This document shows, piece after piece, positions 1,288 through 3,322 of a stretch of DNA of 6,146 bases. The notes below the pieces were generated by a model. That model did no database searches. It was not told the DNA's origin and was given only the letters and a program-made list of their open reading frames with translations. Origin of the DNA: a virus (Duplodnaviria > Heunggongvirae > Uroviricota > Caudoviricetes); the IMG/VR virus record IMGVR_UViG_3300028991_000057, positions 1 through 6,146 of that record; one strand, 5' to 3'. Every line of letters begins with the position of its first letter. The first letter of the stretch is position 1. The position numbers and the translations under genes are program-made.

Positions 1288-1701
1288 TCAGATGGTTTTC
1301 AGTATGCGATCGATGTCGCCGTCATCGCCCGGCTTTCTGCCATCGTATGCCATGCCTGCTGATACGGCTTGCGGGCTGTGCATGTCCATAAAGTTTTCAA
1401 AGGCTGCGGTAAGCTCCGGCGCAACCTTCTGACGTTCCTGCTCTATGGTCATGCTAAGGATGCTTTCAGCGGTACCAACATCGATGCAGGGCACGTTTGC
1501 CATTGCACGCAACAGCGGCTGATAGTCTTTATGCTCATGAAGCGCCATAATCGCATCAGCGCGCGGCTTGTCCTGCTCTTCCAGTTTGTTTAGTTGATAT
1601 ACGGCCTCATAGGTTGATAAACCTCTGTCAGCCATTGCACGCGCTTCGGCTTTAAATTTACTCGCCAGCGGTAGCGTCATGATGCTTTCATTCGTTGCCA
1701 T
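1288..1701 (-). CDS. hypothetical protein, 137 aa, last gene of the head operon (position analogous to lambda FI, homology not established)
   Basis: ATG at 1699-1701 preceded by AGGGGGA; starts 12 nt after the decoration-gene stop. Acidic C-terminus (GDDGDIDRILKTI). No family recognised. Confidence 0.6.
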   Translation of the reverse strand: MATNESIMTLPLASKFKAEARAMADRGLSTYEAVYQLNKLEEQDKPRADAIMALHEHKDYQPLLRAMANVPCIDVGTAESILSMTIEQERQKVAPELTAAFENFMDMHSPQAVSAGMAYDGRKPGDDGDIDRILKTI

Positions 1702-1713
1702 CGTTCCCCCTGC

Positions 1714-2049
1714 TTATCGGGCCAGCGGCTGAACGGATACGCCAGAACCCGCAAAGGCGGCGCATTTTTTCGCATCGGTGTCGACGCTCTCAGGCCAGTT
1801 AACGGCGGCAATATTGAATATCCCCGTCTTGTAGCACTGTGCTGATTTCTGCGTCGACGTGTCCACGGGGTACGAGGTCAGATAAACAGCCTTGCCAGAT
1901 TCCTGACCATCCCACGGCTTAAACTCGCCATTGTCCACCAGCATCAGCGGGGTAAATTCCTGAATAACGCCAGCATCAGCGGCAAAATGTACCAGCGTCG
2001 TTGATACCTGCTGACTGCCTGCAAATAACTCAATGTATGGAGTGTTCAT
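1714..2049 (-). CDS. head decoration protein, lambda gpD-like (111 aa)
   Basis: Shares motifs with lambda gpD as recalled: TPLMLVD/TPLMLD, WDG, YKTGIF/YKSGTF, WPE, KKCAAFAGS/KKRTAFAGT. GGGGGA Shine-Dalgarno sequence before ATG 2047-2049, 11 nt after the capsid stop. Confidence 0.82.
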   Translation of the reverse strand: MNTPYIELFAGSQQVSTTLVHFAADAGVIQEFTPLMLVDNGEFKPWDGQESGKAVYLTSYPVDTSTQKSAQCYKTGIFNIAAVNWPESVDTDAKKCAAFAGSGVSVQPLAR

Positions 2050-2060
2050 AGAATCCCCCG

Positions 2061-3116
2061 TTAACCAATTTTGACGGTAACAAATTTGCGAATATCTGCC
2101 GGTACCGGCTGCGGTGCGCTGTGTGTCTGCACGTACTCAATCGCCGGATCGCCGTCTTCAATCCAGTTTTTCGGGTAAAACATGTTTTGCGTTGCGCCCG
2201 TTCTTACCGCTTCCTGTTCCATAATCGCACCATAGGCCACCAGCCCTTTATTGTTGGTGTTGCCCAGGACCAGCAAATCAGGCTCAAGGAAATATTTTTC
2301 TGTGCCGTCGCTGTCAGTGTATTTGCCGGAATAGACGATAAGGGCCAGATCACCAAGATAGCCTTTAAAGCTCACCACTTCGCCTAGGTTTTTACATGCC
2401 AGCTCTGCGGCGGATTCTGAACCACGGGAGAGATCGTACAGTTCACGGAATTTTTTAAAGCTGCGTAACATGCGCCATACATCAACGCCCATAATCATGA
2501 CGTTGGCGGGGCAACCTGCCTGATCTGCGTATAGTTCAATGTCATATATTGGGTCGTGTATGTCTTTATCCTGCTCAGACCATTTTTTACCGTCGGCCTG
2601 CTCTATGATGTTTTTTTCCGGTATCTTCCAGTCGATTTCATAGCGTTCTATGCCTTCGCCCTCAATGATGTTTTTTCCGGTCGTTACCGCATTCACCGCC
2701 AGCCATTCAACGCGTGCCTTAATGGCGTTTATCTGGCGGCGCATGTTGCCAGTAATCAGGCGCATACGGCGGTAGGTAGGATCGTTAAGCTGTGCCGGAT
2801 CTTCTCCAGCCATGCGCATTATTGTTTTTAATGGATCGATTTCGTGTTTTGGCTTCATGTAGCCAGGGCGGATAATGCTGGTTTCGTACCCTTTATCGCG
2901 CTGAACCTGGCTGCCAACCATAGGCGAACAAAACGCCGACATAGTGACTTCTTCAATATCCAGGTTATCTAACATGATGTCCTGCGTGTTGAATGTCGCC
3001 ACGTTCGGGAAAAACAGCGCGGTAAACAGCGGACTAAATTTAAATTCCGCAATATCCTCGCGATTCAGGTACGCGAAAAGCTGGTGTGTGTTAAGTGCTA
3101 TTGCTTTGACTGCCAT
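2061..3116 (-). CDS. major capsid protein, lambda gpE family (351 aa)
   Basis: Collinear similarity to lambda gpE as recalled: FKFSPLF..LFFP, PGYMKPKHEIDP (PGYVKPKHEVNP), DPTYRRMRLI (DPAYRRRRII), KWSEQDK (EWSKRDK), FKGYLGDLALIVYSGKY (YKGMYGDVAIVVYSGQY), LVLGNT (MVLGNT), RYPKNWIEDGDPA (RYPKNWVTTGDPA), SAP. Length 351 versus 341 aa. Confidence 0.93.
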   Translation of the reverse strand: MAVKAIALNTHQLFAYLNREDIAEFKFSPLFTALFFPNVATFNTQDIMLDNLDIEEVTMSAFCSPMVGSQVQRDKGYETSIIRPGYMKPKHEIDPLKTIMRMAGEDPAQLNDPTYRRMRLITGNMRRQINAIKARVEWLAVNAVTTGKNIIEGEGIERYEIDWKIPEKNIIEQADGKKWSEQDKDIHDPIYDIELYADQAGCPANVMIMGVDVWRMLRSFKKFRELYDLSRGSESAAELACKNLGEVVSFKGYLGDLALIVYSGKYTDSDGTEKYFLEPDLLVLGNTNNKGLVAYGAIMEQEAVRTGATQNMFYPKNWIEDGDPAIEYVQTHSAPQPVPADIRKFVTVKIG

Positions 3117-3322
3117 TATTCGCCCCCATAATTTTTGTGCATCCCAAGCGCCGCAAGTAAATAAGATCGCACAAGTGAACCTATCGACGGCTCCGGCGTC
3201 ATCAGCGGATCCAGTCCAGCCGCAACGCCAGCCTCATAGTTTTTTTTGTGGCGCTGCTTGAGCACCTCCACGATTTCGGGGCTTATGTACACCGAAACAC
3301 CGCCTTTTTTCTCTTCAGCCAT
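3116..3322 (-). CDS. small protein, 68 aa, probable ribbon-helix-helix fold; first gene of head operon
   Basis: N-terminus KKGGVSVYISPEIVEVLKQRHKK has the alternating beta-strand then helix pattern typical of RHH (CopG/Arc-like) proteins. AGAGGAA Shine-Dalgarno sequence before ATG 3320-3322. Its stop overlaps the capsid start (TAATG), suggesting translational coupling. Confidence 0.55.
   Translation of the reverse strand: MAEEKKGGVSVYISPEIVEVLKQRHKKNYEAGVAAGLDPLMTPEPSIGSLVRSYLLAALGMHKNYGGE

What the first reader, a model, noticed from the sequence alone, without database searches (positions are those of the whole stretch)
1288..3322. Minimal head module (RHH protein, gpE-like capsid, gpD-like decoration, 137-aa unknown) without portal, protease, scaffold or large terminase
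The element encodes a full-length lambda-type major capsid protein and a decoration protein in one four-gene operon. Directly upstream is a promoter and a terminator-bounded cassette, then the replication genes. Directly downstream are cos and terS, not the portal, protease, scaffold or terL genes that surround capsid genes in lambdoid phages. This suggests a satellite that builds its own shell, possibly with a different size or stability, on helper-supplied portal, protease and terminase ATPase. The 68-aa RHH-like and 137-aa proteins are candidates for scaffold, size-determination or regulatory roles. The D-like gene follows the E-like gene, the reverse of lambda order.
Basis: partly seen in the sequence, partly recalled or inferred. 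Interest (0 to 1): 0.8.

Follow-up and report, generated by a model that had tools for sequence, protein, structure and literature searches.

The report
Known PICI satellite capsid operon
This is the already-described "capsid" operon (c1498–c1501 type) of a classical E. coli phage satellite (an EcCICFT073-family PICI); it is real, intact and under selection, but published knock-outs show it is not needed for satellite transfer, so its function is still unknown.

Summary
On the minus strand, 3322→1288, four tightly packed genes encode a 68-aa protein, a full-length lambda gpE-type major capsid protein (MCP), a gpD/SHP-type decoration protein and a 137-aa protein. A terminator, a lambda-type cos site and a full-length Nu1-like small terminase follow.

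It is not new. The MCP, decoration and 137-aa proteins are 95% identical to c1499–c1501 of the model satellite EcCICFT073 (the 68-aa protein is 68% identical to c1498). The capsid protein's crystal structure is PDB 3BQW. "Capsid morphogenesis" is one of the five core components used to define PICIs.

Related complete elements are ~11 kb: int–alpA–replication–this operon–terS. None has portal, terL or tail genes, and no protease gene except a Lelliottia PICI.

Published deletions of c1499 or c1500, and replacement of c1498–c1501 by cargo, do not stop helper-mediated transfer.

What I add:
- The 137-aa protein is a protease-less homologue of the lambda gpC/Nu3 scaffold.
- All four genes are under purifying selection.
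- Satellite MCP and decoration proteins form their own co-evolving clade, at most 48% identical to any phage MCP.
- The operon has a deeply conserved promoter region.
- The marked islands named in the 2018 tables carried markers inside this operon.

The RHH assignment is unproven. "Builds its own shell" remains plausible but untested.

The parts
3345..3435 (-). Conserved promoter/operator region of the capsid operon. It holds a perfect -10 TATAAT (3384-3379), a -35-like TTGCAC (3406-3401, 16-nt spacer), the dyad ATTGCA-N5-TGCAAT (3407-3391) and a second 15-nt inverted repeat (3381-3367 / 3364-3350) overlapping the -10 and predicted start region.
   Evidence: The alignment of seven PICI upstream regions, including a Salmonella element whose coding DNA is saturated at synonymous sites, shows a block of about 75 nt that is mostly invariant. 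Inverted repeat I1. The dyad occurs exactly once in each of L001, L002, L007, L008 and L012, upstream of the capsid operon. Promoter function is inferred, not shown.
3485..3555 (-). Two tandem terminator-like hairpins that insulate the operon from the upstream 100-aa ORF cassette.
   Evidence: Terminator scan, 3555-3538. Perfect 14-nt inverted repeat 3485-3498 / 3510-3523 followed by a T run.
3116..3322 (-). 68-aa protein (EcCICFT073 c1498 family), translationally coupled to the MCP gene. Function unknown; possibly a small DNA-binding or assembly protein.
   Evidence: PHROG 3255, E 8.5e-46. Homologues sit immediately upstream of the MCP in E. coli, Salmonella, Edwardsiella and Lelliottia PICIs. 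AF2 pLDDT 72.8: extended N-terminal segment plus two helices. No significant structural match. dN/dS 0.2-0.43.
2061..3116 (-). Major capsid protein, lambda gpE type (HK97 fold), 351 aa; orthologue of EcCICFT073 c1499.
   Evidence: Pfam PF03864 E 5e-49. PDB 3BQW E 4.8e-228; lambda gpE 7VI9 E 4e-81. 94.6% identical to EcCICFT073 c1499. dN/dS 0.07-0.18.
1714..2049 (-). Head decoration (cementing) protein, gpD/SHP type, 111 aa; orthologue of c1500.
   Evidence: Pfam PF02924 E 3.8e-18. PDB 1TD0 (phage 21 SHP) E 7.5e-14; lambda gpD E 1.4e-9. 95.5% identical to c1500.
1288..1701 (-). 137-aa protease-less Nu3-like scaffold homologue (orthologue of c1501). It has two copies of the ~44-aa 'IMxL...A..LA...G.tv..A..iL' repeat plus the FExFMxxHSPxxV tail found at the C-terminus of gpC-type S49 head proteases.
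   Evidence: BLASTP to the C-terminus (416-493 of 501) of the CFT073 lambdoid prophage S49 peptidase: 36% identity, E 3e-9. The only phage tblastn hit is a gpC/Nu3 gene. Library-wide phmmer hit to a 195-aa Nu3-like protein, E 8.5e-4. hhalign against Nu3/gpC C-termini including lambda Nu3: probability 97.3%, E 2.7e-11. The syntenic gene in a Lelliottia PICI is a full 447-aa S49 peptidase and aligns co-linearly. AF2: all-helical, low confidence, disordered 108-126.
1263..1284 (-). Intrinsic terminator-like hairpin ending the operon.
   Evidence: 9-bp stem, 5 GC pairs, T8 tail.
1190..1260 (-). cos1: lambda-type cosQ-like (TTTACGGGTCCTTTCC) and an exact cosN, in the same orientation as the genes and followed by a divergent cosB region.
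   Evidence: Exact cosN at 1214-1225. Sequence read and compared with the lambda, phi80 and EcCICFT073 cos sequences printed in the supplement of PMC6092414.
538..1092 (-). Full-length Nu1-type small terminase (184-aa ORF; annotated homologues are 180 aa). It is not an Rpp.
   Evidence: Pfam Phage_Nu1 E 7e-23. 34% identical to lambda Nu1 over residues 10-170 vs 3-180, E 2e-33. No match in EcCICFT073, which carries RppA instead.
347..358 (+). Second cosN (cos2), inverted relative to cos1, as in EcCICFT073.
   Evidence: Exact match. The surrounding sequence matches 'CFT073 cos.2' of PMC6092414.
1..282 (-). Conserved 93-aa protein at the end of the late region; function unknown.
   Evidence: PHROG 1561 E 1.3e-55. 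87-90% identical in L001, L002 and L004.

Best explanation
The region is the late ('capsid morphogenesis') operon of a classical Gram-negative phage-inducible chromosomal island of the EcCICFT073 family.

Shown:
- It encodes the three high-copy components of a lambda-type head shell: a gpE-type major capsid protein, its own gpD/SHP-type cementing protein, and a protease-less Nu3-like internal scaffold.
- These are preceded by a small, translationally coupled 68-aa protein.
- The operon sits behind its own conserved promoter region, and is followed by a terminator, a lambda-type cos site and a full-length Nu1-type TerS.
- The single-vertex and enzymatic parts (portal, maturation protease, TerL, connectors, tails) are absent from related complete elements of the E. 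coli lineage.

Inferred mechanism: after helper induction the operon supplies satellite-specific shell subunits. These assemble, guided by the satellite scaffold, on helper portal. The shells are matured and filled by helper protease and TerL, with TerL directed to the satellite cos by the satellite TerS, and are then cemented by the satellite decoration protein. This would be an auxiliary packaging route alongside packaging of multimers into helper capsids. It would be conditionally advantageous rather than essential, which would reconcile strong purifying selection with the published dispensability.
For: Identity:
- Pfam, PHROG and PDB matches.
- 95% amino-acid identity of the MCP, decoration and 137-aa proteins to EcCICFT073 c1499-c1501, and 68% for c1498 (gene sizes in Table S2 of PMC6092414).
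- Related complete islands are int-alpA-icd-DUF4222-pri/repA-SSB-PerC-operon-terS, at three different chromosomal sites, with no other morphogenesis genes.

Functionality:
- Intact ORFs and dN/dS of 0.07-0.34 for MCP, decoration and 137-aa genes, even between lineages with saturated dS.
- The full module is present in 592 of 5426 complete E. coli genomes.
- Strong Shine-Dalgarno sequences and coupling.
- A promoter block conserved beyond the coding DNA.

Arguments for an own shell (inference):
- MCP and decoration genes are always paired, in the same order, and give congruent trees in a clade separate from lambdoid phages and from the very prophage one satellite sits in (46% identity). A cementing protein is only useful on an expanded lattice of its cognate MCP.
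- The third gene is a scaffold homologue, and a full gpC-type protease/scaffold in a Lelliottia PICI.
Against: - Deleting c1499 or c1500 did not change EcCICFT073 transfer by its resident helper or its interference with lambda. An island with c1499 replaced by cat is transferred by phage 4, lambda and phi80. DNA packaged in lambda lysates was all phage-sized (PMC6092414).
- Synthetic EcCICFT073 with c1498-c1501 replaced by cas9 or melA cargo is still transduced.
- Individually expressed genes of this region other than c1503 did not affect lambda plaques (PMC6739421).
- No particle containing satellite-encoded gpE-like protein has been reported for this PICI type in the papers I could search.
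- The scaffold-like gene is missing in some lineages (Salmonella L006, Edwardsiella L013) or replaced by an AlpA-like gene (L009, L015), so the 'kit' is not uniform.
- Caveat on the negative data: the marked islands named in the tables were c1501::tetA or c1499::cat, i.e. marked inside this operon. The paper does not state which island was used for the capsid-size assay.
Confidence: 0.4

Rival explanations
1. Capsid remodelling or interference by co-assembly. The satellite MCP and scaffold homologues mix with helper gpE and Nu3, like SaPIbov5 Ccm and SaPI1 CpmB. This would change capsid size or lower helper yield, rather than forming purely satellite shells.
For: The scaffold homologue keeps the C-terminal tail motif of helper-type gpC proteins (FENFMDMHSPQAV vs FEHFMANHSPAAV), which is the CpmB-like logic of competing for the same site. 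[quoted passage not shown] Small capsids are made by the Pasteurella PICI PmCI172, which also carries an MCP homologue.
Against: Deleting c1499 or c1500 did not relieve interference with lambda, packaged DNA was phage-sized, and only c1503 (RppA) blocked lambda when expressed alone. This reading does not explain why a cognate, co-evolving decoration protein is always retained.
Confidence: 0.2
2. Back-up copy of helper head genes. PICIs of this family often integrate into helper late genes (capsid gene E, portal). The satellite copies would substitute for interrupted or limiting helper genes.
For: L010 is a PICI inserted in a prophage gene E, and L013 one inserted in a prophage portal gene. Both carry MCP plus decoration genes. 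The idea was proposed in PMC10111431.
Against: The closest relatives of this window sit at chromosomal sites (clpS/cspD, tRNA-Pro/yejO, roxA/phoQ), not in prophages. Satellite MCPs are only 42-47% identical to helper MCPs, and 46% to the very prophage the satellite interrupts. The L013 satellite interrupts a portal gene yet carries no portal gene.
Confidence: 0.1
3. Dispensable cargo or an evolutionary leftover of a more complete (cf-PICI-like or prophage) ancestor, with no present role in the satellite life cycle.
For: The genes are dispensable for transfer in all published tests, and engineers treat the block as an 'adaptable module'. The Lelliottia element with a full protease suggests progressive gene loss.
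Against: dN/dS is about 0.1 over saturating divergence. ORFs are intact in every lineage examined. Translational coupling and the promoter block are conserved. The capsid gene is present in 21 of 29 reference GN-PICIs.
Confidence: 0.1

Closest known systems
EcCICFT073 (E. coli CFT073 PICI) genes c1498-c1501; capsid protein structure PDB 3BQW
   Same: Same four genes, with the same sizes (68, 351, 111, 137 aa), order and spacing. Identities are 68%, 95%, 95% and 95%. The same two cos sites, the same 93-aa terminal gene, and the same upstream SSB and PerC genes.
   Different: This element carries a full-length Nu1-type TerS (184 aa) where EcCICFT073 has RppA. Its primase C-terminus is only 43% identical. 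The 68-aa allele differs. The best whole-window match in 5426 complete E. coli genomes is 93.8% identical over 91% of the window, so it is a new mosaic of known modules.
Capsid-forming PICIs (cf-PICI, EcCIEDL933)
   Same: Satellite of the same int/alpA/rep backbone family that encodes its own HK97-fold capsid protein. That is the closest precedent for a satellite-built shell.
   Different: cf-PICIs also encode portal, maturation protease, head-tail connectors, HNH and TerL, and steal only tails. None of these is present here or in the E. coli relatives. In the published trees PICI and cf-PICI capsid genes separate almost perfectly.
SaPIbov5 Ccm and SaPI1 CpmB (Gram-positive PICI capsid-size determinants)
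   Same: A satellite-encoded MCP homologue (Ccm) and a satellite-encoded alternative internal scaffold (CpmB). The present operon contains analogues of both (what Ccm and CpmB do is taken from established literature cited in PMC6092414).
   Different: There is no sequence relationship. Small capsids have not been seen for EcCICFT073. A cognate decoration protein is also encoded here.
Lambda head genes C/Nu3-D-E
   Same: Homologous MCP (43% identity), decoration protein (37% identity) and Nu3-type scaffold domain (profile-profile probability 97%).
   Different: Gene order is reversed (E, D, then the scaffold). The scaffold lacks the S49 protease domain and has two repeat units, against one in lambda and three in the CFT073 prophage. 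A 68-aa gene coupled to E has no lambda counterpart; BLASTP against gpW, gpFI and gpFII was negative.

Membership tests
PICI (Gram-negative, EcCICFT073 type; core components as used by SatelliteFinder, PMC10085698) | Capsid-morphogenesis (MCP-homologue) gene downstream of the replication module | tested here: met
   PF03864 E 5e-49 at 2061-3116; 94.6% identical to c1499.
PICI (Gram-negative, EcCICFT073 type; core components as used by SatelliteFinder, PMC10085698) | Small terminase or Rpp plus helper-type cos site | tested here: met
   Nu1-type TerS at 538-1092; exact cosN at 1214-1225 and 347-358.
PICI (Gram-negative, EcCICFT073 type; core components as used by SatelliteFinder, PMC10085698) | Primase-replicase module | tested here: met
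   The C-terminal 211 aa of a D5-type primase lie at 5463-6098 (Pox_D5 E 1e-13; 99.5% identical to the L001 primase). The gene runs off the window.
PICI (Gram-negative, EcCICFT073 type; core components as used by SatelliteFinder, PMC10085698) | Integrase and AlpA-type regulator at the left end; att sites | tested here: inconclusive
   These lie outside the 6146-base window. They are present in all four closest complete elements (L001, L002, L004, L012).
PICI (Gram-negative, EcCICFT073 type; core components as used by SatelliteFinder, PMC10085698) | No other phage structural or lysis genes; element about 10-15 kb | tested here: met
   None in the window. Related elements are about 11 kb and flanked by chromosomal genes.
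PICI (Gram-negative, EcCICFT073 type; core components as used by SatelliteFinder, PMC10085698) | Helper-phage-dependent induction, packaging and transfer | not testable with these tools
   Shown experimentally only for EcCICFT073 (PMC6092414).
Capsid-forming PICI (cf-PICI) | Own portal, prohead protease, head-tail adaptor/connector and TerL | tested here: not met
   No such ORFs or Pfam/PHROG hits in the window or in L001, L002, L004 or L012.
Lambda gpC/Nu3 head protease-scaffold family | C-terminal scaffold region (repeat unit plus C-terminal tail) | tested here: met
   BLASTP E 3e-9 to the C-terminus of the CFT073 prophage gpC. hhalign probability 97.3%, E 2.7e-11, against an alignment including lambda Nu3.
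Lambda gpC/Nu3 head protease-scaffold family | S49 serine protease domain (gpC) | tested here: not met
   The protein is 137 aa with no Peptidase_S49 hit. The PHROG 53 match covers only profile positions 495-566 of 583.
Ribbon-helix-helix (Arc/MetJ/CopG) DNA-binding proteins, for the 68-aa protein | Beta-alpha-alpha fold with significant sequence or structure match to RHH proteins | tested here: inconclusive
Rpp (redirecting phage packaging) proteins, for the 184-aa protein | 144-153 aa protein homologous to RppA/B/C that lacks the TerL-binding C-terminus | tested here: not met
   No tblastn match to the EcCICFT073 locus, which contains rppA. The protein aligns with lambda Nu1 over 3-180 of 181 residues (Rpp sizes from PMC6739421).

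The most novel reading that the evidence does not exclude
Classical EcCICFT073-type PICIs may be 'half-way' capsid-forming satellites. With an intact c1498-c1501-type operon and a cognate lambdoid helper, they would build shells made of satellite MCP, satellite decoration protein and a satellite Nu3-like scaffold on a stolen helper portal. These shells might have a smaller T number that fits one or two 11-kb genomes. This would have been missed because the islands named in the published tables were marked inside this operon (c1501::tetA, c1499::cat) or had it replaced by cargo.
Probability: 0.2. Interest if true: 0.7.

Novelty: already known. Interest (0 to 1): 0.3.

Why it matters
The module itself adds nothing new. 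It is a textbook component of Gram-negative PICIs, present in about 11% of complete E. coli genomes, and its capsid protein already has a crystal structure.

The residual value is that its function is an acknowledged loose end. The genes are conserved, selected and co-evolving, yet 'not required'. Recognising c1501 as a Nu3-type scaffold turns the operon into a coherent shell kit of subunit, cement and scaffold. Together with the point that the marked islands named in the 2018 tables carried their markers inside this operon, this makes a simple experiment worthwhile. If satellite-built or mixed shells exist, classical PICIs and cf-PICIs would be ends of a continuum of capsid autonomy.

Tried and rejected
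- Scan of species-representative genomes with the single MCP sequence found nothing. I used protein-cluster look-ups instead.
- Direct BLASTP of the 137-aa protein against lambda Nu3 was negative. Homology only appeared via 21/Gifsy-type gpC proteins and profile comparison.
- Exhaustive phmmer of the 137-aa protein over 1.8 billion representatives gave only 8 hits, so the family is narrow.
- The AF2 model of the 137-aa protein was too weak (pLDDT 62.7) to use for fold search.
- NCBIfam and PADLOC scans of all operon proteins were empty, so there is no link to known defence systems.
- The 68-aa protein has the same length as lambda gpW, but BLASTP found no similarity to gpW, FI or FII.
- Defective prophage was rejected: the backbone is a PICI backbone and the islands end at chromosomal genes.
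- cf-PICI was rejected: its defining genes are absent.
- The search pattern CTGGAT-N6-ATCCAG failed because the spacer is 4 nt.
- Literature searches for c1499/c1500/c1501 expression data, or for any paper linking Nu3 with PICIs, found nothing relevant beyond the PICI papers cited.
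Full report
**Observation**

All genes in the window lie on the minus strand. The block 3322→1288 contains four ORFs:

| Coordinates | Size | Identification |
|---|---|---|
| 3322-3116 | 68 aa | PHROG 3255 only |
| 3116-2061 | 351 aa | Pfam Phage_cap_E, E 5e-49, nearly full profile coverage |
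| 2049-1714 | 111 aa | Pfam HDPD, E 4e-18 |
| 1701-1288 | 137 aa | No Pfam hit; PHROG 1999 |

- The capsid protein matches lambda gpE structures at E 4e-81. It matches PDB 3BQW ('putative capsid protein of prophage', 351 aa) at E 5e-228.
- The decoration protein matches phage 21 SHP and lambda gpD structures.
- The genes are packed as an operon. The first junction is a TAATG stop/start overlap, the other gaps are 11 and 12 nt, and each start has a strong Shine-Dalgarno sequence.
- Two terminator-like hairpins precede the promoter region and one follows the last gene.
- Immediately downstream lie a lambda-type cos site with an exact cosN (1225-1214) and a Nu1-type small terminase. That protein aligns with lambda Nu1 over its full length (34% identity, E 2e-33). 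A second, inverted cosN lies at 347-358.

**What the element is**

The whole window matches E. coli chromosomes at up to 93.8% identity. In the closest complete genomes the homologous region is the right half of an ~11-kb island. Its gene order is integrase, AlpA-type HTH, Icd-like, DUF4222, primase or RepA helicase, SSB, PerC, the four-gene block, TerS and a 93-aa gene.

These islands sit at three different chromosomal sites: clpS/cspD, tRNA-Pro next to yejO, and roxA/phoQ. They are flanked by housekeeping genes and have no portal, protease, TerL or tail genes.

The island at roxA/phoQ in strain CFT073 is EcCICFT073, the model Gram-negative PICI; its coordinates are given in the supplement of PMC6092414. 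It has the same four genes. The MCP, decoration and 137-aa proteins are 94.6%, 95.5% and 94.9% identical to the window's, and the 68-aa protein is 67.6% identical. Table S2 of that paper lists c1498 (68 aa), c1499 (351 aa, capsid), c1500 (111 aa, head decoration) and c1501 (137 aa, no function).

**What is already published**

- PMC6092414 noted the capsid and decoration genes. It deleted c1499 and c1500 and found no effect on interference with lambda or on transfer by the resident helper. It also reported that DNA packaged in lambda lysates was phage-sized.
- PMC6739421 showed that, among the genes of this region expressed individually, only c1503 (RppA) blocks lambda.
- PMC10085698 lists capsid morphogenesis as one of the five core PICI components.
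- Engineering papers replace c1498-c1501 wholesale with cas9 or melA, and still obtain transducing particles with phi80.

The finding is therefore a known feature of a known kind of element. Its novelty as a 'minimal head module' does not hold.

**New detail 1: the 137-aa protein is a Nu3-type scaffold without the protease**

- PHROGs gave a secondary hit to the extreme C-terminus of the head maturation protease family.
- BLASTP aligns residues 49-131 with residues 416-493 of the 501-aa S49 (gpC-type) peptidase of the lambdoid prophage of CFT073, at 36% identity and E 3e-9.
- The only phage hit by tblastn is the gpC/Nu3 gene of phage PhiR12_2_star.
- An exhaustive phmmer search reaches a free-standing 195-aa Nu3-like protein at a library-wide E of 8.5e-4.
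- A profile of the 137-aa family against a profile of Nu3/gpC C-termini that includes lambda Nu3 gives 97.3% probability and E 2.7e-11.
- Read by eye, the protein consists of two copies of the ~44-aa unit that occurs once in lambda gpC/Nu3 (RIMGILNCEEAHGREEQARVLAETPGMTVKTARRILAAAPQ) and three times in the CFT073 prophage protein. It ends in the same tail (FENFMDMHSPQAVSAG against FEHFMANHSPAAVQGG).
- In a Lelliottia PICI the gene in the same third position is a full 447-aa S49 peptidase. The 137-aa protein aligns co-linearly with its residues 311-413.
- The AF2 model is all-helical, of low confidence, with a disordered stretch, as expected of a scaffold.

I found no paper in the searchable library that links Nu3 with PICIs.

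**New detail 2: the genes are functional and long-resident in satellites**

- Pairwise Nei-Gojobori dN/dS is 0.07-0.18 for the MCP, 0.06-0.34 for the decoration gene, 0.09-0.27 for the 137-aa gene and 0.2-0.43 for the 68-aa gene. This includes comparisons in which synonymous sites are saturated.
- The full block is present in 592 of 5426 complete E. coli genomes.
- No phage among 50,697 records has an MCP more than 47.6% identical.
- Proteins 54-68% identical to the MCP come from PICI contexts in all six clusters examined: Salmonella, E. coli (two lineages), Edwardsiella, Lelliottia and Serratia. In each, the MCP is followed by the decoration gene.
- In small NJ trees the satellite MCPs and the satellite decoration proteins each form a clade apart from lambdoid phages, with congruent topologies. 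An Edwardsiella PICI inserted in a prophage portal gene has an MCP only 46% identical to that prophage's own MCP.
- The 68-aa protein family is also conserved, and always abuts the MCP start.

**New detail 3: regulation**

The ~90 nt upstream of the 68-aa gene is better conserved than the coding DNA across these lineages. It contains a perfect TATAAT (3384-3379), a dyad ATTGCA-N5-TGCAAT over the -35 region, and a second 15-nt inverted repeat over the -10/start region. The first dyad occurs exactly once in each of five related loci, upstream of the capsid operon. This suggests an insulated, factor-controlled promoter. The factor is unknown.

**The 68-aa protein**

**Mechanism**

The gene content is coherent. 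It covers every high-copy shell component (subunit, cement, internal scaffold) and none of the single-vertex or enzymatic ones.

A cognate, co-evolving cementing protein only makes sense on an expanded lattice of its own MCP. I rate it at only about 0.4, because all published functional tests are negative.

Those tests have a limitation that can be read from the strain names. The marked islands named in the tables were c1501::tetA, a marker in the scaffold-like gene, or c1499::cat, in which the MCP gene is replaced. The paper does not say which island was used for the capsid-size assay, so an island with an intact operon may not have been examined for capsid size or composition. The exact cassette position is in a figure I could not see.

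Rivals are co-assembly, remodelling or interference (0.2), a back-up copy for helper-embedded PICIs (0.1) and a dispensable leftover (0.1).

As arithmetic only, and by inference: four 11-kb units fill a lambda-sized T=7 head. One or two units would fit T=3 or T=4 shells.

**Verdict**

- The novelty claim is not supported.
- The element is a new mosaic member of the EcCICFT073 family, carrying a full TerS instead of an Rpp.
- Interest is low to moderate. It rests on the open functional question and on the new scaffold annotation.

Noticed in passing
window 1263-1284, 3538-3555, 3901-3918 (all minus strand): Three terminator-like hairpins share an almost identical stem-loop (AGCCGGAGAAATCCGGCT plus a T run). 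They sit after the 137-aa gene, after the 100-aa ORF and after the PerC region. Repeated boundary sequences like these could act as module-exchange points in these mosaic islands.
   Followed up: partly
window 538-1092 (minus strand): This PICI carries a full-length Nu1-type TerS (34% identical to lambda Nu1 over the whole length, including the region that binds TerL in lambda). The otherwise near-identical EcCICFT073 late region has the 144-aa RppA instead. So TerS-type and Rpp-type packaging modules are swapped behind the same capsid operon.
   Followed up: partly
window 347-358 (+) and 1214-1225 (-): There are two exact cosN sequences in opposite orientation flanking the terS gene, as in EcCICFT073 (cos1 and cos2). 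In the published work only cos1 mattered for transfer. The role of the inverted cos2 is unexplained.
   Followed up: partly
window 3345-3435 (minus strand): A promoter region is conserved beyond the coding DNA across E. coli and Salmonella PICIs. It has a perfect TATAAT and two dyad symmetries (ATTGCA-N5-TGCAAT, and a 15-nt inverted repeat over the -10/start region). The binding factor is unknown.
   Followed up: partly
L014:9409-10752 (Lelliottia sp. PICI next to fis): A PICI whose capsid operon is 75-aa protein, MCP, decoration protein, then a full 447-aa S49 (gpC-type) head protease. It is a step closer to capsid autonomy than the E. coli elements, and the likely ancestral state of the 137-aa gene.
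   Followed up: partly
L010:1511-1786 / 12309-13073 and L013:9908-10681: Helper-embedded PICIs: one is inserted inside a lambdoid prophage's major capsid gene E, and another is inserted in a prophage portal gene in Edwardsiella. Each carries its own MCP plus decoration pair. This matches the HE-PICI class of PMC10111431.
   Followed up: partly
protein P0068 (463 aa, Logan assembly): A single ORF carries both Phage_cap_E and HDPD domains, i.e. an MCP-decoration fusion in the satellite gene order. It may be a real fusion or an assembly or frameshift artefact.
   Followed up: no
window 3575-3877 (minus strand): A 100-aa ORF (PHROG 1957, unknown function) forms a small cassette bounded by terminator-like hairpins, between PerC and the capsid operon. 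It is absent from EcCICFT073 and L002 but present in L001 and L012.
   Followed up: no
Literature: PMC6092414 Table 1 and Table S2: The marked EcCICFT073 derivatives named in Table 1 are c1501::tetA and c1499::cat. c1501 is the 137-aa Nu3-like gene and c1499 is the MCP gene. The reference 'wild-type' islands in those assays therefore appear to have had this operon disrupted.
   Followed up: partly
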